This document shows positions 1 through 56,600 of a DNA stretch of 64,000 nucleotides, piece after piece. Positions within the stretch are counted from its first letter, which is position 1. Every line of letters starts with the position of its first letter. Source of the DNA: Eledone cirrhosa (Eukaryota). Where the stretch lies: positions 30,132,001 to 30,196,000 of the forward strand of contig OZ024744.1 of the NCBI GenBank assembly GCA_964016885.1, in the 5' to 3' direction. Made by a program: the position numbers and the translations under genes. The notes beneath the pieces are model-generated. The model was not told the origin of the DNA. It did not search any database and worked only from the letters and a program-made list of their open reading frames with translations.

Positions 1-3000
1 CCTCTGTGTAAATAGGACAGTCACACCTACATCTGACCATGGATACACCTAGAACACAAAGTAATCAATGTATGTCCCTCTATGTAAATAGGACAGTCAC
101 ACCTACATCTGACTATAGATACACATAGAACACAAAGTAATCAATGTATGTCCCTCTATGTAAATAGGACAGTCACACCTACATCTGACTATAGATACAC
201 GTAGAACACAATGTAATCACTGTGTGTCCCTCTATGTAAATAGGACAGTCACACCTACATCTGACCATAGATACACCTAGAACACAAAGTACTCACTGTA
301 TGTCCCTCTATGTAAATATAACAGTCACACCTACATCTGACCATAGATACACATAGAACACAAAGTACTCAATGTATGTCCCTCTATGTAAATAGGACAG
401 TCACACCTACATCTGACCATAGATACACCTAGAACACAAAGTAATCACTGTATGTCCCTAAGTGTAAATAGGACAGTCACACCTACATCTGACCATAGAT
501 ACACCTAGAACACAAAGTAATCACTGTATGTCCCTCTATGTAAATAGTACAGTCACACCTACATGTGACTATAGATACACCTAGAACACAAAGTAATCAC
601 TGTACGTCCCTGTATGTAAATAGGACAGTCACACCTACATCTGACCATAGATACACCTAGAACAGAAAGTAATCAATGTATGTCCCTCTATGTAAATAGT
701 ACAATCACACCTACATCTGACTATAGATACACCTAGAGCACAAAGTAATCACTGTATGTCCCTCTATGTAAATAGTACAGTCACAACTACATCTGACTAT
801 AGATACACCTAGAACACAAAGTAATCAATGTATGTCCCTATATGTAAATAGGACAGTTACACCCACATCTGACCATATATACACCTAGAACATAAAGTAC
901 TCACTGTATGTCCCTCTATGTAAATATGACAGTCACACCTACATCTGACCATAGATACACATAGAACACAAAGTAATCAATGTATGTCCCTCTATGTAAA
1001 TAGGACAGTCACACCTACATTTGACCATAGATACACCTAGAACACAAAGTAATCACTGTATGTCCCTAAGTGTAAATAGGACAGTCACACCTACATCTGA
1101 CCATAGATACACCTAGAACACAAAGTAATCACTGTATGTCCCTCTATGTAAATAGGAGAGTCACACCTATATCTGACCATGGATACACCTAGAACACAAA
1201 GTAATCACTGTATCTCCCTCTATGTAAATAGTACAGTCACACCTACATCTGACTATAGATACACCTAGAACACAAAGTAATCACTGTATGTCCCTCTATG
1301 TAAATAGTACAGTCACAACTACATCTGACTATAGATACACCTAGAACACAAAGTAATCACTGTATGTCCCTCTATGTAAATAGTACAGTCACACCTTCAT
1401 CTGACTATAGATACACCTAGAACACAAAGTAATCACTCTACGTCCCTCTATGTAAATAGGACAGTCACACCTACATCTGACCATAGATACACCTAGAACA
1501 CAAAGTAATCAATGTATGTCCCTCTATGTAAATAGGACAGTCACACCTACATCTGACTATAGATACACATAGAACACAAAGTAATCAATGTATGTCCCTC
1601 TATGTAAATAGGACAGTCACACCTATATCTGACTATAGATACACCTAGAACACAAAGTAATCACTGTGTGTCCCTCTATGTAAATAGTACAGTCACACCT
1701 ACATCTGACTATAGATACACCTAGAACACAAAGTAATCACTGTATGTCCCTCTATGTAAATAGTACAGTCACACCTTCATCTGACTATAGATACACCTAG
1801 AACACAAAGTAATCACTGCACGTCCCTCTATGTAAATAGGACAGTCACACCTACATCTGACCATAGATACACCTAGAACACAAAGTAATCACTGTATGTC
1901 CCTCTATGTAAATAGGACAGTCACACTTACATCTGAATATATATACACCTAGAACACAAAGTAATCACTGTATGTCCCTAAGTTTCAATAGGACAGTCAC
2001 ACCTACATCTGACTATAGATACACATAGAACACAAAGTAATCACTGTATTTCCCTCCATGTAAATAGGACAGTCACATCTACATCTGACCATAGATACAC
2101 CTAGAACACGAAGTAATCACTGTATGTACTTCTAGGTAAATAGGACAGTCTCACCTACATCTGACTATTAGATACACCTAGAACACAAAGTAATCAATGT
2201 ATGTCCCTCTATGTAAATAGGACAGTCACACCTACATCTGACTATAGATACACCTAGAGCACAAAGTAATCACTGTATGTCCCTCTATGTAAATAGGACA
2301 GTCACACCTACATCTGACTATAGATACACCTAGAACACAAAGTAATCACTGTATGTCCCTCTATGTAAATAGGACAGTCACACCTACATCTGACCATAGA
2401 TACACCTAGAACACAAAGTAATCACTGTATGTCCCTAAGTGTAAATAGGACAGTCACACCTACATCTGACCATAGATACACCTAGAACACAAAGTAATCA
2501 CTGTATGTCCCTCTATGTAAATAGGACAGTCACACCTATATCTGACCATGGATACACCTAGAACACAAAGTAATCACTGTATCTCCCTGTATGTAAATGG
2601 AACAGTCACAACAACATCTGACTATAGATACACCTAGAACACAAAGTAATCACTGTATGTCCCTCTATGTAAATAGGACAGTCACACCTACATCTGACTA
2701 TAGATACACCTAGAACACAAAGTACTCACTGTATGTCCCTCTATGTACATAGGACAGTCACTCCTACATCTGATTATAGATACACCTAGAACACAAAGTA
2801 ATCACTGTATGTCCCTCTATGTTAAATAGTACAGTCACTCCTACATCTGACCATAGATACACCTCGAATACAAAGTAATCACTGTATGTGCCTCTATGTA
2901 AATAGGACAGTCACACCTACATCTGACTATAGATACACCTAGAGCACAAAGTAATCACTGTATGTCCCTCTATGTAAATAGGACAGTCACACCTACATCT

Positions 3001-6000
3001 GACTATAGATACACCTAGAACACAAAATAATCACTGTATGTCCCTCTATGTAATTAGGACAGTCACACCTACATCTGACTATAGATACAGCTAGAAGACA
3101 AAGTAATCACTGTATGTCCCTCTATGTAAACAGGACAGTCACACCTACATCTGACTATAGATACACCTAGAACACAAAGTAATCACTCTATATCCCTCTA
3201 GGTAAATAGGACAGTCTCACCTACATCTGACTATTAGATACACGTAGAACACAAAGTAATCAATGTATGTCCCTCTATGTAAATAGGACAGTCACACCTA
3301 CATCTGACTATAGATACACCTAGAACACAAAGTAATCACTGTATGTTCCTCTATGTAAATAGGAAAGTCACACCTACATCTGACTATAGATACACCTAGA
3401 ACTCAAAGTAATCAATGTATGTTCCTCTATGTAAATAGGACAGTCACACCTACATCTGACTATAGATACACGTAGAATACAAAGTAATCACTCTATGTCC
3501 CTGTATGTAAATAGGACAGTTACACTTACATCTGACCATAGATACACCAAGAACACAAAATAATCACTGTATGTCCCTGTATGTTAATGGAACAGTCACA
3601 CCAACATCTGACTATAGATACACCTAGAACACAAAGTAATCACTGTATGTCCCTCTATGTAAATAGGACAGTCACACCTACATCTGACTATAGATACACC
3701 TAGAACACAAAGTAATCACTGTGTGTCCCTCTATGTAAATAGGACAGTCACACCTACATCTGACCATAGATACACCTAGAACACAAAGTAATCACTGTAT
3801 GTCCCTATCTGTAAATAGGACAGTTACACCCACATCTGACCATATATACACCTAGAACACAAAGTACTAACTGTATCTCCCTCTATGTAAATATGACAGT
3901 CACACCTACATCTGATCATAGATACACATAGAACACAAAGTAATCACTGTATGTCCCTCTATGTAAATAGGACAGTCACACCTATATCTGACCATGGATA
4001 CACCTAGAACACAAAGTAATCACTGTATCTCCCTGTATGTAAATGGAACAGTCACACCTACATCTGACCATAGATACACCTAGAACACAAAGTAATCACT
4101 GTGTGTCCCTCTATGTAAATAGTACAGTCACACCTACATCTGACTATAGATACACCTAGAACACAAAGTAATCACTGTATGTCCCTCTATGTAAATAGTA
4201 CAGTCACACCTTCATCTGACTATAGATACACCTAGAACACAAAGTAATCACTGTACGTCCCTCTATGTAAATAGGACAGTCACACCTACATCTGACCATA
4301 GATACACCTAGAACACAAAGTAATCAATGTATGTCCCTCTATGTAAGTAGGACAGTCACACCTACATCTGACTATAGATACACATAGAACACAAAGTAAT
4401 CAATGTATGTCCCTCTATGTAAATAGGACAGTCACACCTACATCTGACTATAGATACACCTAGAACACAAAGTAATCACTGTGTGTCCCTCTATGTAAAT
4501 AGGACAGTCACACCTACATCTGACCATAGATACACCTAGAACACAAAGTAATCACTGTATGTCCCTATATGTAAATAGCACAGTCACACACACATCTGAC
4601 CATATATACACCTAGAACACAAAGTACTCACTGTATGTCCCTCTATGTAAATATGACAGTCACACCTACATCTGACCATAGATACACATAGAACACAAAG
4701 TACTCAATGTATGTCCCTCTATGTAAATAGGACAGTCACACCTACATCTGACCATAGATACACCTAGAACACAAAGTAATCACTGTATGTCCCTAACTGT
4801 AAATAGGACAGTCACACCTACATCTGACCATAGATACACCTAGAACACAAAGTAATCACTGTATGTCCCTCTATGTAAATAGTACAGTCACACCTACATC
4901 TGACTATAGATACACCTAGAACACAAAGTAATCACTGTATGTCCCTCTATGTAAATAGTACAGTCACACCTACATCTGACTATAGATACACCTAGAACAC
5001 AAAGTAATCACTGTATGTCCCTCTATGTAAATAGTACAGTCACACCTACATCTGACTATAGATACACCTAGAACACAAAGTAATCACTGTACGTCCCTCT
5101 ATGTAAATAGGACAGTCACACCTACATCTGACCATAGATACACCTAGAACAGAAAGTAATCAATGTATGTCCCTCTATGTAAATAGGACAGTCACACCTA
5201 CATCTGACTATAGATACACATAGAACACAAAGTAATCAATGTATGTCCCTCTATGTAAATAGGACAGTCACTCCTACATCTGATTATAGATACACCTAGA
5301 ACACAAAGTAATCACTGTATGTCCCTCTATGTTAAATAGTACAGTCACTCCTACATCTGACCATAGATACACCTCGAATACAAAGTAATCACTGTATGTG
5401 CCTCTATGTAAATAGGACAGTCACACCTACATCTGACTATAGATACACCTAGAACACAAAGTAATCACTGTATGTCCATCTATGTAAATAGGACAGTCAC
5501 ACCTACATCTGACCATAGATACACCTAGAACACAAAGTAATCACTGTCTGTCCCTCTATGTAAATAGGACAGTCACACCTACATCTGACTATAGATACAC
5601 CTAGAACACAAAATAATCACTGTATGTCCCTCTATGTAATTAGGTCAGTCACACCTACATCTGACTATAGATACAGCTAGAACACAAAGTAATCACTGTA
5701 TGTCCCTCTATGTAAACAGGACAGTCACACCTACATCTGACTATAGATACACCTAGAACACAAAGTAATCACTGTATGTCCCTCTATGTAAACAGGACAG
5801 TCACACCTACATCTGACTATAGATACACGTAGAATACAAAGTAATCACTCTATGTCCCTGTATGTAAATAGGACAGTTACACTTACATCTGACCATAGAT
5901 ACACCAAGAACACAAAGTAATCACTGTATGTCCCTGTATGTTAATGGAACAGTCACACCAACATCTGACTATAGATACACCTAGAACACAAAGTAATCAC

Positions 6001-8182
6001 TGTATGTCCCTCTATGTAAATAGGACAGTCACACCTACATCTGACTATAGATACACCTAGAACACAAAGTAATCACTGTGTGTCCCTCTATGTAAATAGG
6101 ACAGTCACACCTACATCTGACCATAGATACACCTAGAACACAAAGTAATCACTGTATGTCCCTATCTGTAAATAGGACAGTTACACCCACATCTGACCAT
6201 ATATACACCTAGAACACAAAGTACTAACTGTATGTCCCTCTATGTAAATATGACAGTCACACCTACATCTGATCATAGATACACATAGAACACAAAGTAA
6301 TCACTGTATGTCCCTCTATGTAAATAGGACAGTCACACCTATATCTGACCATGGATACACCTAGAACACAAAGTAATCACTGTATCTCCCTGTATGTAAA
6401 TGGAACAGTCACACCTACATCTGACCATAGATACACCTAGAACACAAAGTAATCACTGTGTGTCCCTCTATGTAAATAGTACAGTCACACCTACATCTGA
6501 CTATAGATACACCTAGAACACAAAGTAATCACTGTATGTCCCTCTATGTAAATAGTACAGTCACACCTTCATCTGACTATAGATACACCTAGAACACAAA
6601 GTAATCACTGTACGTCCCTCTATGTAAATAGGACAGTCACACCTACATCTGACCATAGATACACCTAGAACACAAAGTAATCAATGTATGTCCCTCTATG
6701 TAAATAGGACAGTCACACCTACATCTGACTATAGATACACATAGAACACAAAGTAATCAATGTATGTCCCTCTATGTAAATAGGACAGTCACACCTACAT
6801 CTGACTATAGATACACCTAGAACACAAAGTAATCACTGTGTGTCCCTCTATGTAAATAGGACAGTCACACCTACATCTGACCATAGATACACCTAGAACA
6901 CAAAGTAATCACTGTATGTCCCTATATGTAAATAGCACAGTCACACACACATCTGACCATATATACACCTAGAACACAAAGTACTCACTGTATGTCCCTC
7001 TATGTAAATATGACAGTCACACCTACATCTGACCATAGATACACATAGAACACAAAGTACTCAATGTATGTCCCTCTATGTAAATAGGACAGTCACACCT
7101 ACATCTGACCATAGATACACCTAGAACACAAAGTAATCACTGTATGTCCCTAACTGTAAATAGGACAGTCACACCTACATCTGACCATAGATACACCTAG
7201 AACACAAAGTAATCACTGTATGTCCCTCTATGTAAATAGTACAGTCACACCTACATCTGACTATAGATACACCTAGAACACAAAGTAATCACTGTACGTC
7301 CCTCTATGTAAATAGGACAGTCACACCTACATCTGACCATAGATACACCTAGAACAGAAAGTAATCAATGTATGTCCCTCTATGTAAATAGGACAGTCAC
7401 ACCTACATCTGACTATAGATACACATAGAACACAAAGTAATCAATGTATGCCCCTCTATGTAAATAGGACAGTCACTCCTACATCTGATTATAGATACAC
7501 CTAGAACACAAAGTAATCACTGTATGTCCCTCTATGTTAAATAGTACAGTCACTCCTACATCTGACCATAGATACACCTCGAATACAAAGTAATCACTGT
7601 ATGTGCCTCTATGTAAATAGGACAGTCACACCTACATCTGACTATAGATACACCTAGAACACAAAGTAATCACTGTATGTCCATCTATGTAAATAGGACA
7701 GTCACACCTACATCTGACCATAGATACACCTAGAACACAAAGTAATCACTGTCTGTCCCTCTATGTAAATAGGACAGTCACACCTACATCTGACTATAGA
7801 TACACCTAGAACACAAAATAATCACTGTATGTCCCTCTATGTAATTAGGTCAGTCACACCTACATCTGACTATAGATACAGCTAGAACACAAAGTAATCA
7901 CTGTATGTCCCTCTATGTAAACAGGACAGTCACACCTACATCTGACTATAGATACACCTAGAACACAAAGTAATCACTGTATGTCCCTCTATGTAAATAG
8001 GACAGTCACACCTACATCTGACCATAGATACACCTAGAACACAAAGTAATCAATGTATGTCCCTCTATGTAAATAGGACAGTCACACCTACATCTGACTA
8101 TAGATACACCTAGAACACAAAGTAATCACTGTATGTCCCTCTATGTAAATAGGACAGTCACACCTACATCTGACCATAGATA
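1..8182. repeat. Tandem satellite, 76-bp monomer (~107 copies visible; extends beyond window start)
   Basis: Unit cctctatgtaaataggacagtcacacctacatctgacyatagatacacctagaacacaaagtaatcactgtatgtc restarts at 1, 77, 381 (5x76); ends abruptly near 8182. Confidence 0.98.
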
Positions 8183-8265: not shown

Positions 8266-8332
8266 TATTTTATCTGATGAGGACGTACTGTTGAACTTAA
8301 CTCAGTACCTCTGAAACATGTATAATAAAATA
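8266..8332 (+). ncRNA. Minimal type I hammerhead ribozyme in a PLE pLTR-like end (stem I imperfect)
   Basis: CTGATGA 8274-8280, stem II gtactg/cagtac, GAAAC-AT-GTA (palindromic stem III), AATAAA directly downstream, then (TA)n. Confidence 0.7.
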
Positions 8333-8859: not shown

Positions 8860-9954
8860 CTAGGGGTTAGATGTATATTGTTTTGAGAGTTTTCGTGGCC
8901 ATTTTACCGTCCTGCCACCTCGTGTGACATAAGGTTGTGTGGTATGTAGTGTTTGTGGTGGAGCTGAAGGTGTTGATGTGGGAGTGTATGTACGAGGTAT
9001 GTCAGGCAGTGTAATGAGACTTTCAGAGAAAGCCTTCTTTGCTCTGTCAATGGATATTGTCTCTTTTCGACCATTGACAGCCACTGTGAAATGTTTGGGG
9101 GTGTGCGAAAGCACACGAAAAGTTCCATTGTAGGGTGACGTAAGCGGTCCCTTGAAGGAATCATTCCGTATAAAAATGTGTCCACTTAGAGATGTCCGAT
9201 GGGACAGCAGAAGAAATAGACTGGTCACGAGTGTTCATCGGTGGAAGATCCGGGAAATACGAACGAATCCTGGTAACATATGATGCTAGGCGAAGGTGTG
9301 ATGAATCCACTGGTGCTAACATTTTTCCAGGAAGAGACAATGGGGTACCATAAAGAAGTTCAGCAGAAGAAAAACCCTAAATCTGTCTTAATGGCAGAAC
9401 GACAACCAAGAAGGACGATTGGCAAATATTCGGTCCAGCGTTGCGGATCAGGAGTAGAGCGAAGTGCAGGTTTCAACTGTCTATGAAACCTCTCCACCAT
9501 TCTATTGGAGGCTGGGTGATAGCTGGTCGTATGAATGTGATGAGTACCCAAGACTCGTGATATTTCACGAAATAAGGAAGCTTCAAATTGGCGTCCACGA
9601 TCCGTAGTTTTAGTAGGAACACCAAAACGAGCAATCCAATTGGAAATGAAAGCTCGGGCAATGGACTCTGCCGTTATGTCCACTAGTGGTATGGCTTCAG
9701 GCCACCGAGAGGAACGATCGATACAAGTCAATATATATATGAACCCACGGACCAACAATATCCATGTGAATATGACGGAAACATGCGTCTGGCGGGCTGA
9801 ATTTCCCAATAGAAGCGCGGACATGCCGATAAATCTTAGAGGGCTGACACTTCAAACAAGGATGAGCCCAACTGGTGATTAAACGACGCATATTAGGCCA
9901 GAAGAATCGAGCCGTAATAAGCTTTACCGTGGCAGCTATGCCAGGATACGACAA
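8860..9954 (-). pseudogene. pol: Gypsy pol: integrase (Zn-binding, core, GPY/F module), frameshifted
   Basis: [51 protein letters not shown]. Confidence 0.9.
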
Positions 9955-10075
9955 GGAATGAAGTGCATCAAAAACGGTACACTGATGACAATCTGGAACA
10001 AGTGGTCTGGGTGAACCAGTAGAAATATCGCAAAGAATTTTTCCTTCAGCAGATGGAAGAGGTAAATAATCAAAC

Positions 10076-10699
10076 TTACAGCAGGAAAGCTTGGGGAGAA
10101 GAAATTTCCAACGAATCCAAAGTAGGTTGGTCAGTTGCTATGGCAACCAAATCGATGTGTGCAGGAGACGCAAGAGAACACACAGAAAGTCGAGATAGTG
10201 CATCTGCAGGTATGTTGGCAGTTCCAGCTATATGACGAATGTCACTGGTATACTGGGAAATGAGATCCAGATGCCTATACGCTCTCGGAGAGTACCTGTC
10301 GGATTTGGTTTGAAGAGCGAATGTGAGTGGTTTATGGTCTGTGAATACCGTGAATTCCCGACCTTCAAGAAGATGGTGGAAATGTCTCACAGCAAGATAA
10401 ATCGCTAGAAGCTCTCTGTCAAAAGTACTGTAACGTTGCTCTGCTAGTTTTAGTTGGCGTGAGAAAAACGCCAGTGGTTGAACCTGGTGATCGATCGCAC
10501 GTTGCAAAACTGCACCAACAGCATGATCGGATGCATCAACAGATAAGGAACGTCTCGCGTTTGAAACAGGATGGGCGAGGAAGGAAACTTCAGCTATCTC
10601 AGACTTGACGGATTCAAAAGACTGCAAAGCATCAACAGGAAGTGAAATAGGAGCATCTTTCTTTTTTGCAGTCTTTAAAAGCTGTGTCAAGAGGAACAA
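10076..10699 (-). pseudogene. pol: Gypsy pol: RNase H
   Basis: DASDHAVGAVL, YSTFDRELLAI, FTDHKPL, NIPADALSR. Confidence 0.95.
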
Positions 10700-10884
10700 C
10701 TTGTCCGCACAGTTAGGGATGAAACGATGAAATGACGTAATTGTTTCAAGGATGTTGGTGGTGCGATATACTGAATCGCTTCTACCTTAGATGGCAAAGG
10801 TCGAATGCCTTCTGAATCTATAAGATGTCCAAGGAATTCGAGTGAATCTGTACCAAAAACACACTTAGCTGGGTTGATTCTGAC

Positions 10885-11877
10885 TTAGTAGGATCGAAGA
10901 CGTTGAAATAACTGGGATAGATGTTGATGATGGTGCTCAGTTGAATCACTGGCTATCAGGAGATCATCCACGTAAGCAAACACGAAATCCAATTCACGCG
11001 TGACTTCATCGATAAAACGTTGGAGCGTACTAGATGCATTCCGCAAACCAAAAGGCATGGACAGAAATTCAAACGAACCAAAAGGAGTGGTCACAGTTGT
11101 TTTTGATATGTCTTCTGGATGCATGTGTATTTGATGGTAAGCCCGTACCAGATTTATTTTAGAAAATATCTTGCATCCATGCAGAACGGATGAAAAATCC
11201 TGTAAATTTGGTAAAGGATAACGATCAGGTGTAGTGATGGCATTAAGTCGTCTATAATCTCTCACAGGTCTAAAATCCGCCTGACCCTTAGGAGCCAAAT
11301 GAAGCGGAGATGCCCATGGGGTGGTGGACGGTCGTATAAGACCAAGCTGAAGCATGTGTTCGAACTCATCCTTGGCTTTCTTTAGCCTGTCCGGAGCCAA
11401 CCTACGTGAACGAGAAAAAACAGGCGGAGCAGTTGTTGTAATAAAATGTCGAGTCGAGTGGACTACTTGGTTCGGTTTAAATGAAATGTCAGTTAACTCG
11501 GGAAACCAGGCAAGAAGTGAATGAAACTGGTTTCCAGAGGCAGCTATAAAACACGCGGGACTTATGACAGTAGCAGTAGACCTGCGAGCAGGCGTAGATA
11601 AGGATGTGGTACCATCCACAAGTTTCTGTCTCCTGACATCTACCAACAGTGAGTAGTGGTGTACAAAATCAGCACCGCGAATAGGATGAGGTAGGGCCAC
11701 AACGACGAAAATCCATTTAAAATCTCGGCGCAAAGCTATGTCCAATGATAAAGATATTTGTCCATAGGTTTTTATAGGAGACTGGTTTACTGCATACAAG
11801 GAAATGCCGGAAAAATTTGGCTTGGTAGAGCTGAACCGAAGAGGCCAAATACTGCAACTAGATCCTGTGTCGACCAT
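10885..11877 (-). pseudogene. pol: Gypsy pol: aspartic protease + reverse transcriptase
   Basis: VDTGS protease motif; PWASPL, DYRRLN, DRYPLP, MPFGLRNA, YVDD. Confidence 0.95.
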
Positions 11878-12778
11878 AAATGATTTGTTTGAAACTCAGT
11901 CTCTGATAAAGAAAGCACGATAAGGTGAATTAATGAGGGAGAGGTCTGCCGTGTCCAGACTCTCCAATTTTAGTTTTCCGCGGTCTCGAAAGAGCAGGGC
12001 TGAATACAGTGTTTTGCCTTTTCACGAAAACGCACGTGATACCAACACAAAGACGAGTTGTTGGCGCGTCATTTTGAAAAAAAAAAAAAATGATCACATC
12101 GAACGCAAGCATGCTAACCTTTTCCCAACCACATCTTATGCTTCAGGATTATACCTCGTTATGCCACGAGGACATTTGTTTACCACCTTTGTAACATGGA
12201 CTACAATAAATGCAAGTTATTTTGATACTCGTCTTGAGAAACTTATTATGCTTCAGTCATTACTTCTAATGTAGTGAGAGATAATTTTCACGCGAAGTGA
12301 ATTTGTAAGAAAATTCTTCTATCTCTTATTTTTATTAAATTTAGTAGTTGGGATCCGGTGGTACTTACTGGAGTAAGTGACCCTGGGACTAGCTCACTAA
12401 AAATGGTGACTTCCGAATACGCAGCATAACAAATTCATTCATTCAACAGCGTATAAAAGTAGTGACAAATATTTTCATACACTATTACAACTTATTGCTA
12501 CACAAATATTGCTAAACAACTCCACTAAAATGGTAAACCCAACAACTACACAGAAAAGAAAAATTATTCACGAATCCAGGAAATTCGTTTTATTTCAGTC
12601 AGTTCGTGTGGGGCGAACCAAATAGGAAACAAACATTTTTGTCCCTCGTGTCGTCGATTCAACCAGGCTTTCGTTTTTGAAGTCGCCATCTTACTTGCTC
12701 AGTGCTACATTTTACTTCAGCTATTCATGGTACAACCACGTGTGCGGCAGTTGAAACAAATTTCGCTCAGCGGCTACT

Positions 12779-13487
12779 GTGTTCATCATGAGCAATTGTT
12801 CGTTACCAACATATTCTGGTGATGCAAAGTTGTGGTTTGCACAACTGGACTCGTATTTTTCCGCCCACGGCATTCAAGCGGCACAACAAAGATTACACGT
12901 GCTCATAAGTGGAATTCCTGCATCGCTCGCAACCTCAGAGAAATACATAATCACAGATCCTCCACAAGGCACAACTTACGAAATTCTAAAGGCAGAAATA
13001 CTCAGACGGAACAGCCGTTCGTCTGAGAGCAGATTTCGTTCCTTGTTGGAGGAGGAAAACCTGAATAACAGAACCCTGTCTCAGTTTTTACGGCGCATCC
13101 GGAAACTCAACAGCAGAGGACAACTCTTTCGTGAAACAATTCTTCTTCTCCCGTTTGCCAACAAATGTGCAGACCATATTGGCAAATATGGTCGACACCA
13201 TTTCTCTGGACCAAATTGCAGCCTCGGCGGATCGCATTATAGAATTTTCTCGTGTGCCTACTTCGGTAGATTCACTGAGATCCATTGACGCGTTAACTCG
13301 TCAAGTGACTAAACTTTGTCGGGAGCGAGCACCATCCAGGTGGCGTTCACGGAATCGGTCTCCTTATCTTCATCGTCGCGCCAACTTCCCCGCCAACAAC
13401 TCGTCTTTGTGTTGGTATCACGTGCGTTTTCGTAAAGAGGCGAAACACTGTATTCAACCCTGCTCTTTCGAGACCTCGGAAAACTAA
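12779..13487 (+). pseudogene. gag: Gypsy gag (one frameshift near 13130)
   Basis: LPTYSGD..LWFAQL N-terminus; C-terminal CWYH-RF-AKHC-PC Zn motif; ends SEN-stop. Confidence 0.85.
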
Positions 13488-13579
13488 AATTGGAGAGTCT
13501 GGGCACGGCAAACCTCTCCCTCATTAATTCACCTTATCGTGCTTTCTTTATCAGAGACTGAGTTTCAAACAAATCATTT

Positions 13580-14122
13580 ATGGTCGACACAGGATCTAGT
13601 TGCAGTATTTGGCCTCTTCGGTTCAGCTCTACCAAGCCAAATTTTTCCGGCATTTCCTTGTATGCAGTAAACCAGTCTCCTATAAAAACCTATGGACAAA
13701 TATCTTTATCATTGGACATAGCTTTGCGTCGAGATTTTAAATGGATTTTCGTCGTTGTGGACCTACCTCATCCTATTCGCGGTGCTGATTTTTTACACCA
13801 CTACTCACAGCTGGTAGATGTCAGGAGACAGAAACTTGTGGATGGTACCACATCCTTATCTACGCCTGCTCGTAGGTCTACTGCTACTGTCATAAGTCCC
13901 GCGTGTTTTATAGCTGCCTCTGGAAACCAGTTTCATTCACTTCTTGCCTCGTTTCCCGAGTTAACTGACATTTCATTTAAACCGAATCAAGTAGTCCACT
14001 CCATTCGACATTTTATTAAAACAACTGCTCCGCCTGTTTTTTCTCGTCCACGTAGGTTGGCTCCGGACAGGCTAAAGAAAGCCAAGGATGAGTTCGAACA
14101 CATGCTTCAGCTTGGTCTTATA
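13580..14122 (+). pseudogene. pol: Gypsy protease and RT start, truncated by deletion
   Basis: Near-identical to ORF 10885-11877 up to LQLGLI. Confidence 0.9.
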
Positions 14123-14708
14123 ACATTTCACAGTGGCTGTCAATGGTCGAAAAGAGACAATATCCATTGACAGAGCAAAGAAGGCTTTCTCTGAAAGTCT
14201 CATTGCACTTCCTGACATACCTTGTACATACACTCCCACACCAAAACCTTCACCTCCACCGCAAATACTACATACCACACAACCTTATGTCACACGCGGT
14301 GGCAGGACGGTATAATGGCCACGAAAACTCTCAAAAACAATATACATCTAACCTCTAGTGGCATTAACAAAACTTCTTTTTCAGTTTTCAGATAGAACTA
14401 GTGTCAGAAAGTCTGTACACTGGTGATGTATGAACTATTTGACTTTGAAAAACTTTGAAAAACTTTGAACTTACCATTGAGCATTCATTTTCTCTGCTCC
14501 CTTATATTGACTTTGAATTATCAGTTGTTACATTCACACTTTTCTTTGTAAAATGCATTTACGTTTTGTGCTTTTTTTGCTATTTGCTTGCTCATGTTTT
14601 TTATTCATACATATTCTTGTACCTTTTGTTTTGCTCCTCATTTCTTACGGGTTTTCGCTACAATGACCTTCGATTGGTTATTCAACTTCTCGTCTGAGAG
14701 GGGAGTCT

Positions 14709-48150: not shown

Positions 48151-48366
48151 ATATTACATATATATATATATACATATATATATATACATATATATATATA
48201 TACATATAACATATAGGAACCAGTAAGACCCCGACGGCTGAGCTCAAGCCGTTTCGACGGCTAATTCTGGACAAATTGAGTACTTTGGTGCGTTATGGTC
48301 CACCTGGTTCCTTACCACATTTCCTTCGTTACATATAACATATATAGATATATATATATATACATA

Positions 48367-50470
48367 TATAGAAAGGATAAAAAGGACGATTGATTATTCC
48401 TTCATTGCATTTATTGACAGGTGACGCGTGTTTCGCCACTGATCAGCTCAAGGTTCAATCTATATCGCTCCTACCCGACTCAATAATCGGCAGCTCGACG
48501 GACCCTCTTAAAATGCTATAAGAAAATGAAATACATGTTATGTGGTAAAGTCAGAGTTTCAAGAGTTTGACAAAATGAGTTGTTTTGATTGGTGGGAAGG
48601 ATCAAGGCCATGTACTGGCCTGTAGTGTATATGGGGGTGGGGGTGATGGTGAGATGTTGGTGACGGTCTGTGGATGAGGTGGGCTGTGGTGTGGTGGTGG
48701 TGGGTTGGCCTTGGCGTGTAGAGTATGTGGGGCTGGATGTGATGATATGGTGGTGGTGGTTAAGGTTATTTAGTGGGATGGGCTGTGGTATGAGGTTAGT
48801 GGATTGTCAGTAGACGGGTTGGCGTGTGGGTGGGGGTGTGGTATTGGTGCCGTTGTCTATGGTAGCGGCGTTTCTACCATATAACACACCGTAACCTCTG
48901 ATCATGTAATGATCTTGTCGAACATATCACCCCAGCACCACCACCATCACCATGTCCACAACACACATCACCGTACGTCCATAAACGCTTTTCCCCCGCG
49001 TTCCCTATATCACCTTTTAACCGGTATTCGAACCACCACAAAACACAACTCCATACTTCATCAACACCGACAACACATACCTCCACTCCCCAACCAACAA
49101 TAGTGTGTGTGTCTGTGTGTAAGTATTTTTACTCATACGGGCGTTTAAGTATGCGTGCGTGTACGCATATTTATGTGTATGTGTGTGTGTGTGTATGTGA
49201 ACACATGTGTATGCATATGTCTATGTGTGTGTATATATATATCTGTATATATATGTGTATGTGTATGCGTATGTGTATGTATGTATGTGTATGTATGTGT
49301 GGGTATGTGTACGTCTACATATATGTATATGGGTAAATCTGACTGTATGTGTAGGTGAGCTCATATATGTGCATGTATGTGTATATGTGCGTGTATGTGT
49401 GTGTTGTCAGTACATGTGTGTGTATATATATATGTATATATATGTGTGTGAGTATACGTGTGTGCGAGTGTGTATGTGTATATCTTGCATACATGAGTGT
49501 GTGTCCATGTGCCCATACCCATGTGTATGTATGTGTATGTGTATATATGTAAAACACCTTCTACATTGCCTCTCACCTTCCCCCCATCTCTGTCGTTCGC
49601 CACCCCCACCGATACTCCCCCACTCTCCATATTCGTGTCCGCATGCGCGCATACACATACATGTGTGTACATATACATATGGCTGTGTGTAAGCGTATGT
49701 CGATATGTGTGGGCAAGGATGTGCGTATGTGTTTTATGTTGTGTGTGTTTATACAACAATATATGTGTGTGTACGTATACGTTTATACAAGGTATCTGTC
49801 AAACGAAGAGCGTCTAACTATGTATCTATGTAAGGACCTTGACGCCACCAATACATCCACCACACCACCACAAACGCCGCTACCATAGACAACGGCACCA
49901 CTACCACACCCCACCCACACGCCAACCCGTCTACTGACAATCCACTAACCTTATACCACAGCCCATCCCACTAAATAACCTTGACCACCACCATATCATC
50001 ACATCCAGCCCCACATACTCTACACGCCAAGGCCAACCCACCACCACCACACCACAGCCCACCTCATCCACAGACCGTCACCAACATCTCACCATCACAC
50101 CCACCCCATATACACTACAGGCCAGTACATGGCCTTGATCCTTCCCACCAATCAAAACAACTCATTTTGTCAAACTCTTGAAACTCTGACTTTACCACAT
50201 AGCATGTATTTCATTTTCTTATAGCATTTTAAGAGGGTCCGTCGAGCTGCTGATTATTGAGTCGGGTAGGATCGATATAGATTGAAACTTGAGCTGATCA
50301 GTGGCGAAACGCGCGTCACCTGTCAATAAATGCAATGAAGGAATAATCAATCGTCCTTTTTATCCTTTCTATATTTTACACTCAGTAAAGCTCTACACAT
50401 CATCACAGAAGTGAACCTAAACATTGAGTGCTCACCCGGGTGAACCTGCAGTAACTCCTAGTTACACCCA
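48367..50470 (+). mobile_element. PLE-like non-coding element with ~505-bp inverted arms (48367-48873 and 49872-50373) and a 3' tail
   Basis: Arms are reverse complements, each with an HHR-like motif plus AATAAA. Confidence 0.8.
50235..50321 (+). ncRNA. Hammerhead-like motif, CCGTCGA core, long stem II (inverted copy ~48419-48505)
   Basis: gggt-CCGTCGA-gctgctgatta...tgatcagtggc-GAAAC-GCGC-GTC-acct, AATAAA at 50325. Confidence 0.65.
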
Positions 50471-50509
50471 CTGGATATATACATATATATATATATATAT
50501 ATACATATT

Positions 50510-50561
<52 letters not shown>

Positions 50562-50614
50562 CATATATATATATATTTATATATACATATATATATATAC
50601 ATATATATATATAC

Positions 50615-50704
<90 letters not shown>

Positions 50705-50705
<1 letters not shown>

Positions 50706-52252
50706 ATTAAGTTAAAAATGTACATCCACATATGTATACTGAAATACTAGTATGCATATGAATACACACACGTATACATATGTAGATGTACCGAGTTTTT
50801 CACTGGTCACTTTACTGTGAGTGTCCAGCTATTCTGTATGTAAACACACAGACAAACCGGTTTTTAGAGTCATACTGGTTTTTGAGGAAACACCTTTCCT
50901 CTATTCTCCAGAAAGCCAGACAAGGAATATTGAACTAGTTTCGATGTTGTTACATCTCATCAGCAATATTTACCTATCTTCCGGCCTTTCTAGAGAATCG
51001 TAAAAGCACATATCGTTATATGCTTTTTCTATGAAAATTAGTAGTGGGCAGACTAATTTGCATAGAGCGTGAGTACGTACCGGTTCAACGGAGACGATAA
51101 AAACAAATAACGAAACGAAATTAAATTTCGTTTCGTTTGTAACTCACTTTTGTATGACTGACGCTTAAACAATTAAGTTAAAAATGTACATCCACATATG
51201 TATACTGAAATACTAGTATGCATATGAATACACACACGTATACATATGTAGATGTACCGAGTTTTTCACAAAAGTGAGTTACAAACGAAACGAAATTTAA
51301 TTTCGTTTCGTTATTTGTTTTTATCGTCTCCGTTGAACCGGTACGTACTCACGCTCTATGCAAATTAGTCTGCCCACTACTAATTTTCATAGAAAAAGCA
51401 TATAACGATATGTGCTTTTACGATTCTCTAGAAAGGCCGGAAGATAGGTAAATATTGCTGATGAGATGTAACAACATCGAAACTAGTTCAATATTCCTTG
51501 TCTGGCTTTCTGGAGAATAGAGGAAAGGTGTTTCCTCAAAAACCAGTATGACTCTAAAAACTGGTTTGTCTGTGTGTTTACATACATAATAGCTGGACAC
51601 TCACAGTAAAGTGACCAGTGAAAAACTCGGTACATCTACATATGTATACGTGTGTGTATTCATATGCATACTAGTATTTCAGTATACATATGTGGATGTA
51701 CATTTTTAACTTAATTGTTTAAGCGTCAGTCGTACAAAAGTGAGTTACAAACGAAACGAAATTTAATTTCGTTTCGTTATTTGTTTTTATCGTCTCCGTT
51801 GAACCGGTACGTACTCACGCTCTATGCAAATTAGTCTGCCCACTACTAATTTTCATAGAAAAAGCATATAACGATATGTGCTTTTACGATTCTCTAGAAA
51901 GGCCTGAAGATAGGTAAATATTGCTGATGAGATGTAACAACATCGAAACTAGTTCAATATTCCTTGTCTGGCTTTCTGGAGAATAGAGGAAAGGTGTTTC
52001 CTCAAAAACCAGTATGACTCTAAAAACCGGTTTGTCTGTGTGTTTACATACAGAATAGCTGGACACTCACAGTAAAGTGACCAGTGAAAAACTCGGTACA
52101 TCTACATATGTATACGTGTGTGTATTCATATGCATACTAGTATTTCAGTATACATATGTGGATGTACATTTTTAACTTAATTGTTTAAGCGTCAGTCATA
52201 CAAAAGTGAGTTACAAACGAAACGAAATTTAATTTCGTTTCGTTATTTGTTT
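50705..52252 (+). mobile_element. Retrozyme-like family A: 466-nt monomer; inverted 1.2-mer (50705-51269) joined to 2.1-mer (51268-52252)
   Basis: Period 466 in both orientations; one HHR per monomer; non-coding; flanked by (TA)n. Confidence 0.9.
51451..51495 (+). ncRNA. Type I hammerhead, family A (also 51917-51961 plus and 50926-50970 minus)
   Basis: aatattg-CTGATGA-gatgt aac aacatc-GAAAC-TA-GTT-caatatt; stem I extends via agg/cct and gccgga/tctggc. Confidence 0.92.
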
Positions 52253-52258
52253 ATATAT

Positions 52259-52373
<115 letters not shown>

Positions 52374-52418
52374 TATATATATATATACATATATATATAC
52401 ATATGTATATATATATAT

Positions 52419-52735
52419 ATGAAAGACGTAAATAAGAAAGTTATGAAAATTGACTTACTAAAATTTCCCTCCAACTAATTAGTTCTGTAAGGGGATAAAT
52501 ATGGTTACGGAGCGTATCCACAGAGAAGCCTTACGTCATCAGGGAGTCTATTCTCAGCTAAGCTTCCAGGCAATGCGAGGACACTGGGAATTAATATAAA
52601 AATAATTCAGTGGATGGAAAAAAGCGAGCGGGGACTAGATTCCAAGACATTGAAAAATTCACTGCCTACTTGGTCAAGTGGCAAATTCAAAAGAATCAAT
52701 CACGTGACACTGAGGTTAATCAGTGAGGAGTGGGG
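52419..52735 (-). mobile_element. Partial family B copy with degenerate HHR (GAA instead of GAAA)
   Basis: Reverse complement resembles 16010-16345. Confidence 0.75.
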
Positions 52736-53670: not shown

Positions 53671-56600
53671 CAACTAACAACGCTGCGATCGAATGTGGCT
53701 TTTTAGCCCAGCCAATGATCTAAAATGTCTTGCACAGAGTCGGCAACCAAAACATTCACTGGGAATACTCGGCTGTGGTTGGAGTTCGTGTACTTTTGCA
53801 TGTTGCTTGAGCCCTCCTGCTGATTTACATTCTCTACCACATGTTTGGCAAGCATGATGAGTAGCATCTCCAACAGTAGCCTGGTAGTCAACCACTGGTC
53901 TTACTTTATGACTGCGAAGATGACTGTCGAGTCCAGCTTTGCTTAGGCAGAGTCTCGCACATACGCTGCATGTCAGCACCATAGGAGGACCCTCGCCGTC
54001 TGGAAGTGCAACAGCAATGCCCTTCCTCACATCCCGCTTTACTTTCTCGTATGCGATTCGAGATGCCTCAAAGGCAACTTTTCCCTCATATACAGTCTTT
54101 CTCCATTTATTACGATCAGCAGCAATATTTTCCCATGTATCAGCAGAGATGTTAGCGTCTTTCAAAGAGGCTTTCAAGGAATCCTTATACCTCTTTTTTG
54201 GTTTATGTGGCGGTCGTTTTCCTTTAACCAACTCTCCATAAAAGAGTTGTTTTGGTATTCTAGAATCCTTCATCCTGGCAAGGTGACCACTCCAACGAAG
54301 TCGTTGCTTAAGCACAAGAGCTTTTATACTGTCACACATAGAGCTTACCAAAATCTCGACATCACTGATGTGGTCCCTCCAGTGAACGCCATGGATCCGT
54401 CTGAGACACATCTGATGGAAACGCTCCAATTGCTTAAGGTGGTGTCGATATGTGACCCAGGTCTCGCAGGCATAAAGAAGACAAGAGAGCACACATGCCC
54501 TGTACATCTTTACCTTTGTCCTCCTGCATATGTCTCGCCGACCCCAGAGTCGCCTTTCTAGCTTTCCGAAAGCATCACTTGCTTTCCTAATCCTAAGTGA
54601 GATTTCACTGTCATGGTTGTTGTATCGATTGACAGTGCTCCCCAGGTAGACAAACTGATCAACCACTCCAAGTCGTTTGCCATACACATAGATGTTTGGT
54701 TCAGTGTACTGCTTACCAGGGGCAGGTTGGTACATGACAACGGTTTTCTTGAGACTGACAGTCAGACCTAGGGCAGTGAAAGCGTCAGAAAATGCATTCA
54801 AAATGTGCTGCATATTACTCTCTGTGTGCGCTACAAGATCGCAATCATCTGCATACAAGAGGTCTCTTATGATTGATGTAAATACTTTTGTCTTCGCAGC
54901 AAAGCGCCTGATGTTAAATATGCTGCCTGAGGTTCGATATCGGATGTAAACACCATGCTCGCAATTCCTGAATGTAATACAGAAAACCATTGCAAAGTAT
55001 ATGGCAAACAGGGTCGGTGCTGGAATATCCCCCTGTTTCACTCCATTTTTTACTGAGATAGGCTCCGACATGTTACCCCCGACATTAACCCAAGCCTTCA
55101 TGTCGTCATGGAAAGACCTAACTAAAGCAAGGAACTTATCAGCGCAACCAAGCTTCTGGAGAACCTTCCATAATGCATCTCTGTTAACAGTATCGAAAGC
55201 TTTTGTCAGATCGACAAAAGCCTGATACAGATCTAAGCCTTGTTCCATGCACTTCTCCTGGAGCTGTCTAGCTGAGAAGATCATATCAGTAGTGCCGCGT
55301 CCAGCACGAAAACCAGATTGACTTTCAGGAAGAACACAATCTGCAATGTGTGTCAGCAGACGGTCCAGAAGAACCCTACATAAAACTTTCCCTACGACAG
55401 AAAGCAATGATATACCTCTGTAGTTTCCACAATCGTTCCTGTTACCCTTTCCCTTGTACAAGACGATCATTACTGCATCTCTCCAGTCCTCAGGTACGGA
55501 TTCATTAGCCCATATCCTGCCAAACAAAGAGTGAAGATGTTGCAGGAGTCTCTCACCACCATATTGTAGGAGCTCAGCATGTATGCCATCCATACCTGGA
55601 GATCTTCCACTGTTCAGCTTCGAAACAGCCACTGCAACCGCCACAAGCGTCGGAGGTTCTGCGAAAGCTACCTTCACAGGACTTTCTGGAATGAGATTGA
55701 GGAAATCTTCACTGACGACAGACGGCTGATTCAAAAGATCATCAAAGTGCTCTCGCCACCTTCGTAGAATTCCTTGTGAGTCACGAAGAAGTTCTTTGCC
55801 ATCCTTGCTGCGAAGCGGTGTCACCAGAGAAGAAGACGGTCTATAAACCTCACGCAAGAGACTGTACAACAGCTTTGTGTTATTGGAATCAGACGCAGTT
55901 TGTATCTCACCAGCCTTCTCACTCCACCACTGATACTTCATCTGAGAAAGACTCCGCCTAACACGTGATTTTACATCCCTGAGTTCCTCATGCAACGTAT
56001 TCCTCTCCTGTAGTTTTGCCGTCAAGTAGCGTGACAGAGCACGCTTCTTATCAGCCAACAAGTCTTCTATATGTACATCATTCTCATCAAACCAGTCCTG
56101 GTGTTTCCTCTGCGCCAATCCCAGAACACGCCTGCCTACATCATAAACCGACTTTTTAAGGGTCGGCCAATCCTCACCAAGATCTGCAGCCTGCATCTCT
56201 TCTTCCAATGTCCTCTTCACATTTTTATCCTTAAGACGAGCAGCATTCAATCTTTTGGGCAGGGCAACACCAGGAGCCCGGATTTTACGTTTAGTGATTA
56301 GTTTCACTTTTGCGCGTACCAGGCAGTGGTCCGTCCAGCACTCAGCTCCACGAAGAACACGAACACACTGCACATCCTGTCTGTCACGCATCCTGACTAG
56401 GACGTAGTCCAAAAGATGCCATTCCTTAGATGCAGGATGCATCCATGTGGTCTTGAATTTGTTCTTTCGTTAGAACATGGTGTTGGTAACACACAGATCC
56501 AGCTCCTCACACATCTGCAGCAGGAGCATACCATTGCTGTTACACTTTCCCACCCCATGCCTTCCGATTATATTCCATGTGTTAAAATCCCTACCCACTC

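What the first reader, a model, noticed from the sequence alone, without database searches (positions are those of the whole stretch)
50705..52252. Family A: head-to-tail 466-nt hammerhead repeats, a candidate circRNA-producing retrozyme
Seen: a non-coding 466-nt unit as an inverted 1.2-mer fused (AC microhomology, 51268-51269) to a 2.1-mer. Each unit has an intact type I HHR with extended stem I and several hairpins (aacgaaacgaaat/atttcgtttcgtt, gaggaaa/tttcctc, aaaccagt/actggttt), and lacks the AATAAA that follows pLTR HHRs. Predicted cleavages after 51488 and 51954 release exactly one monomer. Segment ends fall at arbitrary points of the unit. Established: metazoan non-LTR retrozymes are tandem HHR repeats that yield circular RNAs and are thought to use PLE machinery. 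Inference: this is a large retrozyme copied by rolling-circle reverse transcription. I cannot confirm from here that the family is undescribed.
Basis: partly seen in the sequence, partly recalled or inferred. Interest (0 to 1): 0.9.

Follow-up and report, generated by a model that had tools for sequence, protein, structure and literature searches.

The report
Two-armed hammerhead retrozyme, Penelope-inserted
This is one of at least 2,500 insertions of a non-coding 466-base repeat that carries a predicted self-cutting RNA; the copies end at two fixed points, a known footprint of Penelope-like jumping genes, so the repeat is likely pasted in by their enzyme, probably from a small RNA circle.

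Summary
The 466-nt unit, three type I hammerheads, inverted 1.2-mer + 2.1-mer layout and AC junction are real. One claim is wrong: outer ends are not arbitrary. The family (9,337 hammerheads, 2,516 + 1,598 exact end junctions) ends at two fixed unit positions, 227-234 and 298-303, in (TA)n, and back-to-back arms pair one of each (39 of 41). That is the Penelope-like 'tail' signature; a Neptune-type element in the same window does the same (13 of 13). Inner ends are scattered. The fold is strong (z -10, 8 compensatory pairs); stem III is minimal, so cutting likely needs two units. Arrays of 18 and 32 near-identical units on both arms favour rolling-circle copying, but older arrays show later local expansion. 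Each unit carries a U6/MRP-type promoter word plus a TATA-like word, though these also form hairpins. Near-identical units occur in runs of other coded organisms; unresolved. No RNA evidence. Verdict: new member of the known animal non-LTR retrozymes, with a testable insertion mechanism. This scan noted two-armed ends and promoter words before, in other families of this genome.

The parts
50475..50704 (.). left (TA)n target microsatellite
50705..51269 (-). inverted arm, 1.21 units; 3' end at site A (unit position 228), 5' end at position 130
51268..51269 (.). AC microhomology joining the 5' ends of the two arms
51268..52256 (+). direct arm, 2.12 units; 5' end at position 246, 3' end at site B (position 298-302, merges with TA)
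51489..51954 (+). cut-to-cut monomer (466 nt), predicted circle; unit positions are counted from 51489
51440..51511 (+). type I hammerhead 1, predicted cut after 51488 (GUU)
51906..51977 (+). type I hammerhead 2, predicted cut after 51954
50910..50981 (-). type I hammerhead of the inverted arm, predicted cut between 50933 and 50932
52183..52256 (+). 'tail': the 74 nt between site A and site B, present at this end only; holds the aacgaaacgaaat hairpin
51630..51701 (+). long TA-rich hairpin just before site A, also in sister families
51357..51405 (+). promoter-like module: TATGCAAATTAG (51357-51368) and ATATAA (51400-51405); repeated at +466 and at 51056-51063 on the minus strand; also arms of two hairpins
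52257..52420 (.). right (TA)n target microsatellite

Best explanation
This is a young insertion of an abundant non-coding repeat whose unit carries a predicted self-cutting hammerhead and is likely copied into (TA)n by the reverse transcriptase/endonuclease of a Penelope-like element, probably from a circular monomer RNA. Steps: (1) inferred: tandem copies are transcribed, possibly from a U6-type promoter inside each unit, starting about 55 nt before the ribozyme; (2) predicted: hammerheads of neighbouring units cut, probably as a double hammerhead, releasing a 466-nt monomer that a host ligase would close (by analogy with coral, mussel and axolotl); (3) shown as a genomic pattern, inferred as chemistry: both DNA ends of a cut in (TA)n prime copying, one at site A (227-234) and the other at site B (298-303); (4) inferred: each runs round the template for a variable distance, from under one unit to tens of units; (5) shown: the two 5' ends are joined head to head by 0-8 nt overlaps or short fillers; (6) shown for some long arrays: later local expansion. 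My odds per step: Penelope-type mobilisation 0.92; circular template 0.65; working internal promoter 0.55; partner is a Neptune family 0.45.
For: Dispersed family: 4,731 + 4,606 exact hammerhead matches, control 0; 2,516 site-B and 1,598 site-A junctions with TA, controls 0. 39 of 41 outward-facing end pairs within 25 kb on C1:1-117 Mb are A+B, 0 of 100,000 label shuffles (the one B+B pair is two separate insertions); 29 of 29 two-armed loci with both ends called, of 34 examined. Neptune-type element of this window: two ends 58 nt apart, one per arm, in 13 of 13 two-armed copies among 30 loci. Two internal start sites bounding the tail were shown in vitro for an anole Penelope-like element (PMC11167929). 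Sister family at 62% identity keeps the unit length, the hammerhead type and homologous ends. 8 pairs with two-sided change among 16 units, 3 of 500 shuffles, at most 2 in slid controls. 34 of the 39 A+B pairs span more than two arms stopping at the cut could (535 nt, continuity not checked for all). 18 of 18 units identical across both arms at C1:30.83 Mb; 32 units with 2 singleton variants at C4:223.6 Mb. Promoter word at -77/-78 with TATA at -30 in three distinct U6 promoters and RNase MRP of this genome; word in 113 of 121 distinct units, 4 of 20,000 shuffles.
Against: No RNA evidence for cutting, monomer or circle. Only 2 of 82 inner ends lie within 5 nt of the cut, so cutting leaves no direct mark. 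Arrays at C1:81.85, C1:5.74, C10:47.4 and C1:14.04 Mb share variants in periodic patterns: array length alone does not prove rolling circle, and identical arrays could also be a very recent expansion or assembly polishing. Arms of one locus differ by about 0-2%, but the nearest other locus is often as close, so 'same molecule' is not proven; one locus (L036) differs by 7-9%. No Penelope-like ORF shares sequence with the unit in 1.2 Mb of fetched loci (outputs partly cut), and its tail (69-74 nt) is longer than the Neptune tails (58 and about 60 nt). Promoter word and TATA-like word are also hairpin arms, their spacing is 4-5 nt shorter than in U6/MRP, T5 runs at 215 and 296 would stop Pol III, and 14 of 18 U6 hits examined lack the word (most have decayed 5' ends). 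Only 1 of 9 predicted Xenopus retrozyme dimers cut in vitro. One A+A pair and two more listed.
Confidence: 0.62

Rival explanations
1. Same Penelope-type insertion, but the template is a linear, uncut read-through multimer from an existing array; the hammerhead is weak or acts elsewhere in the cycle and no circle is needed.
For: Minimal stem III and GUU triplet; arms run through intact ribozymes and inner ends ignore the cut site; ribozyme mutants did not affect insertion by the anole element in vitro (PMC11167929).
Against: Arms of 6+12 and 20+12 near-identical units would need a 5-9 kb uncut transcript of an already homogeneous array; compensatory change in hammerhead stem II in 6 of 16 units and an intact core in 9,337 copies argue for selection on the ribozyme; described retrozymes accumulate as circles (PMC7229834).
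Confidence: 0.26
2. Truncated pseudo-LTRs of an unfound autonomous Penelope-like element, some later expanded as satellite; not an independent replicon.
For: End signature is that of autonomous elements; Xenopus retrozymes are related to pseudo-LTRs; only about 100 of more than 2,500 insertions were viewed.
Against: In 26 positional loci no copy ran into an ORF as far as flanks and ORF lists show; the unit runs seamlessly from tail to ribozyme with no coding vestige, whereas the Neptune start sites lie inside its ORF; multi-unit arms on both sides in young copies.
Confidence: 0.06
3. A DNA-level satellite or fold-back element spread by recombination or circular DNA; the ribozyme and fold are relics.
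For: Periodic shared variants in 4 of 9 arrays examined; palindromic layout; (TA)n is recombinogenic (own knowledge).
Against: Strand-specific fixed 3' ends, A+B pairing, variable 5' ends, a 10-bp target duplication at L046, covariation in RNA stems.
Confidence: 0.04

Closest known systems
Animal non-LTR retrozymes (Cervera and de la Pena 2020, PMC7229834, parts 2-4 of 6 and passages read; Li, Clavereau and Pollet 2026, 10.64898/2026.07.22.740005, parts 1-3 of 5 read; supplements of neither seen)
   Same: Tandem non-coding units with one type I hammerhead, GC under 50%, strongly self-paired fold that leaves the ribozyme free, thousands of copies, weak stem III with a palindromic loop as in axolotl HHR_Amex1, co-occurrence with Penelope-like elements.
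   Different: In the text read, neither paper describes two fixed 3' ends, head-to-head arms, (TA)n targeting or an internal promoter; mobilisation by Penelope-like elements is argued from co-occurrence and pseudo-LTR similarity. No cephalopod family is mentioned in what I read. RNA and cutting are untested here.
Insertions of endonuclease-bearing Penelope-like elements with inverted pseudo-LTR and tail (PMC8557442 passages; PMC3846280 passages; PMC11167929 parts 1-2 of 4)
   Same: Inverted 5'-truncated copy, tail at one end only, two internal start sites, microsatellite targets, 8-10 bp duplications when visible.
   Different: No ORF; tail 69-74 nt against 30-40 bp described; both arms can be long tandem arrays; PMC3846280 explains head-to-head inversions by self-priming on an antisense template, whereas the A+B rule here fits priming from both DNA ends.
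Newt satellite 2 (Coats, Zhang and Epstein 1994; paper not held; seen only as cited in PMC2220036)
   Same: Hammerhead repeat reported to be transcribed from an internal snRNA-type promoter.
   Different: There Pol II; here the word matches this genome's U6/MRP promoters and not U1/U2, the spacing is shorter and the polymerase is unknown.
MRC1-type non-autonomous Chlamys elements (PMC8557442, passage)
   Same: Non-coding Penelope-like passengers with multicopy head-to-tail insertions.
   Different: They share 3' sequence with autonomous families, and the group is described as lacking canonical hammerheads; no such shared sequence was found here.

Membership tests
non-LTR retrozyme | tandem repeats with a type I hammerhead in each unit, at least two consecutive | tested here: met
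non-LTR retrozyme | non-coding, no tRNA-derived head | tested here: met
   longest stop-free stretch 60 codons; no tRNA; among Rfam hits seen over the element only the hammerhead is credible
non-LTR retrozyme | no LTR / primer-binding site / polypurine tract | tested here: inconclusive
   no LTR-body-LTR layout; primer-binding site and polypurine tract not searched
non-LTR retrozyme | highly self-paired monomer with the ribozyme free to fold | tested here: met
   z -10.15; 8 compensatory pairs
non-LTR retrozyme | dispersed insertions, target duplication over 4 bp when visible | tested here: met
   at least 2,516 insertions; one clear 10-bp duplication (L046) among 34 loci, the rest hidden in (TA)n
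non-LTR retrozyme | self-cleavage of the RNA | not testable with these tools
   needs in vitro transcription
non-LTR retrozyme | expressed as linear and circular monomers | not testable with these tools
   no run on record as RNA was listed; contigs cannot show circles
Penelope-like insertion (passenger) | inverted 5'-truncated copy and one-sided tail between two fixed start sites | tested here: met
   same in a Neptune-type family
autonomous Penelope-like element | RT + GIY-YIG ORF between pseudo-LTRs | tested here: not met
pseudo-LTR derivative of a known partner | sequence shared with the pseudo-LTR of an autonomous family | tested here: inconclusive
   no match in 1.2 Mb of loci; whole genome not searchable this way
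type 3 (U6-like) promoter | proximal element and TATA box at the host's fixed spacing | tested here: inconclusive
   word matches exactly, spacing 42-43 nt against 46-48 in U6/MRP; internal T5 runs
LTR retrozyme (plants) | type III hammerhead in LTRs, 4-bp duplication | tested here: not met
   type I topology, tandem layout

The most novel reading that the evidence does not exclude
A self-promoting, viroid-like RNA circle that mimics both start sites of a Penelope reverse transcriptase, is written into both ends of a DNA break by two-sided rolling-circle copying, and has moved between animal species: words of the unit are held by 20 runs from 16 studies and 17 coded organisms, and the three other organisms laid hold units about 98% identical to this one.
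Probability: 0.13. Interest if true: 0.85.

Novelty: new member of a known kind. Interest (0 to 1): 0.5.

Why it matters
Which enzyme mobilises animal retrozymes, and how Penelope-like elements make their head-to-head inversions with a one-sided tail, are both open in the papers read. This family gives a sequence-level link (two fixed start sites, one per arm, thousands of times) and a minimal 466-nt substrate on which both questions can be tested in vitro: circle against linear multimer, and one start site per DNA strand. If the internal promoter works, it would explain why retrozymes are so highly expressed. The class itself is known.

Tried and rejected
No RNA holder listed: no evidence either way on expression. 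Run X8 (same coded organism as the best holders, kind not on record) has one depth-3 contig with clustered T>C changes, which resembles A-to-I editing but is one low-depth contig. The control for close kinship or cross-contamination (laying other organisms on a stretch with this unit and other repeats) could not be obtained, so spread between species is open; the three foreign units lie 5-8 substitutions from the nearest of 171 genome units and mostly use alleles seen in this genome, and two have low depth (4.5, 9.7), which fits contamination as well as transfer. Partner search: low-stringency BLAST and a DNA profile of the tail region found only sister families. Single-copy hammerhead variants checked as possible pseudo-LTRs (4 loci) were truncated copies of a third non-coding family. 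Target duplications mostly unreadable. Enrichment of inner ends at the cut: not found; a deficit at positions 407-466 (2 against about 10 expected, one of 8 bins, post hoc) is unexplained. Idea that sites A and B are simply Pol III terminators: rejected, since site A holds in subfamilies with a broken T run and arms run through both sites. Rfam microRNA hits are microsatellite noise. Sequence look-up in earlier notes gave nothing. Coats 1994 not held. Dfam and Repbase were not available, so the family may be catalogued there.

Full report
Observation. Between two (TA)n tracts lie an inverted arm (50705-51269) and a direct arm (51268-52256) of a 466-nt unit, 99% identical, sharing AC at their junction. 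Each full unit holds a type I hammerhead (Rfam HH9, 36.5 bits, below gathering) with predicted cuts after 51488 and 51954. Unit positions below count from 51489. The monomer folds far better than shuffles (z -10.15) and the minimum-energy fold contains the ribozyme. It has no ORF or poly(A) signal. Stem III is only A.U + C-G around the palindrome ACUAGU, which can pair between two ribozymes; axolotl ribozymes of this kind cut well only as dimers (PMC7229834).

Family. The window lies in a 3.0-Gb animal genome; the closest named relatives of a retroelement protein in the window are from octopus, so a cephalopod is likely. The hammerhead pattern matches 9,337 times, control 0. Sixteen units chosen for diversity (ten representatives span 88-97% identity) show 8 pairs changed on both sides, in hammerhead stem II, the extended stem I and three other helices; 3 of 500 shuffles reach that number and slid controls give at most 2 (related sequences can inflate such counts). 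A looser pattern gives 23,319 matches: two sister families, one 62% identical with a 466-516 nt unit, also non-coding and tandem.

Ends are fixed, not arbitrary. In 26 loci taken by position (first 100 pattern hits, C1:1-30.8 Mb), 41 of 42 called 3' ends lie at site A (228-234; 18) or site B (301-303; 23), 39 of them running into TA repeats by my filter (one further short end at L090 was below the length filter). Genome-wide there are 1,598 exact A and 2,516 exact B junctions. Of 41 outward-facing end pairs within 25 kb on C1:1-117 Mb, 39 join one A with one B; none of 100,000 label shuffles does. By sequence, 29 of 29 two-armed loci with both ends called are A+B, of 34 examined. Either arm may be the longer. 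Inner ends are scattered (82 ends, KS p 0.15; 2 within 5 nt of the cut) and joined by 0-8 nt overlaps (27 of 41) or fillers. The window copy obeys the rule: A on the left, B on the right.

This is the Penelope-like signature. An inverted truncated copy and a one-sided tail are described for these elements (PMC8557442, PMC3846280; passages), and the anole element starts reverse transcription at two internal sites that bound the tail, on both strands of AT-rich DNA (PMC11167929). As an internal control, the Neptune-type element at 61438-63978 (CxxC linker before GIY-YIG, own hammerhead; 1,561 candidates) ends at 63920 or 63978, one per arm, in 13 of 13 two-armed copies among 30 loci (the query favoured the longer end). 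The sister family has homologous ends, and all three families keep the same local fold: long TA-rich hairpin, small hairpin with site A in its loop, second hairpin, then TTAT|CG at site B. No autonomous family sharing sequence with the unit was found in 1.2 Mb of loci, so the partner is not identified; Naiad elements also target (TA)n.

Circle or linear multimer. Most insertions cross the cut site: 34 of 39 A+B pairs span more than 535 nt. Arms of one locus differ by about 0-2% against medians of 3-11% to other loci, but the nearest other locus is often as close (64 elements). Two arrays are near-clonal on both arms (18 of 18 identical; 32 units with 2 singleton variants), as rolling-circle copying of one molecule predicts; four long arrays show periodic shared variants, meaning later local expansion; three short ones say little. 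An uncut linear multimer remains possible.

Promoter. All three families keep TATGCAAATTAG followed by a TATA-like word. The same word lies at -77/-78 with TATA at -30 in three distinct U6 promoters (4 of 18 U6 loci examined; the other 14 lack it and most look decayed) and in the one RNase MRP gene, and not in the 13 U1/U2 loci viewed. A start near position 409-413 would sit just ahead of the ribozyme. Against: spacing is 4-5 nt short, whereas insect U6 spacing is tightly kept (PMC1761439, passage); T5 runs would stop Pol III, although human type 3 promoters can also recruit Pol II (PMC6023835, abstract); and both words are hairpin arms. Newt satellite 2 is cited as having an snRNA-type promoter (PMC2220036).

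Other organisms. Twenty runs from 16 studies and 17 coded organisms hold words of the unit. Of 4 laid, three from other organisms hold it at about 98%; two give single 495-496 nt contigs, that is one unit closed on itself, at low depth. They are 5-8 substitutions from the nearest genome unit. Close kinship, contamination and horizontal transfer are all open.

Comparison and novelty. It meets every testable feature of animal non-LTR retrozymes; cutting and circular RNA could not be tested. Searches (open-access library only; supplements unseen and could bear on this) found no paper reporting fixed two-site ends or A+B arms for a retrozyme, nor an octopus retrozyme. Earlier notes of this scan report the same end rule and promoter words for other families in this genome; I had found the end rule before reading them and tested both here. 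Verdict: new member of a known kind, with an unusually clear and testable insertion footprint. Interest 0.5.

Noticed in passing
window 59156-59855: A second, unrelated tandem hammerhead element between (TA)n tracts: two ribozymes 484 nt apart (59217, 59701; CUGACGA core), with a GACCTCCC word like the distal element of this genome's snRNA promoters.
   Followed up: no
window 61438-63978: 5'-truncated Neptune-type Penelope-like element with hammerhead (about 63720-63765) and two fixed ends (63920, 63978) inside the first codons of its ORF; a second Neptune family about 72% identical has an 1,130-codon ORF at L150.
   Followed up: yes
window 48366-50374: Inverted-repeat element with arms 98% complementary and a hammerhead-like pseudo-LTR followed by AATAAA.
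   Followed up: no
window 1-8182: 76-bp satellite, 108 copies, followed by a hammerhead at 8274.
   Followed up: no
window 8860-14170: Two opposed, broken copies of an LTR-retrotransposon-like ORF set (protease, RT, integrase-like stretches), judged from the translations.
   Followed up: no
window 53674-57258: Long RTE-like LINE ORF on the minus strand (931 codons plus endonuclease frame).
   Followed up: no
L159:6556-7421 and G000 C1 loci L193-L210: Sister retrozyme families (62% identical and a third variant) with the same two-armed layout; together with this family 23,319 hammerheads.
   Followed up: partly
L123:1833-2037: A Neptune copy ends in three tandem repeats of its last about 102 nt, as if the enzyme re-started on the tail region.
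   Followed up: no
L085:4424-4440, L043, L010, L093, L096: Very short inverted arms (12-20 nt) that still end at the other fixed site; many apparently one-armed copies are two-armed.
   Followed up: partly
L211-L237, L252 upstream regions: This genome's U1, U2 and U6 genes share a TTACCTCCCTT-like element near -265; U6 and MRP have TATGC(A/T)AAT(T/G)AG at -77 where U1/U2 have TCAGT near -57.
   Followed up: partly
window 60000-60345: Short fold-back element with a hammerhead-like motif on each arm, between TA tracts.
   Followed up: no
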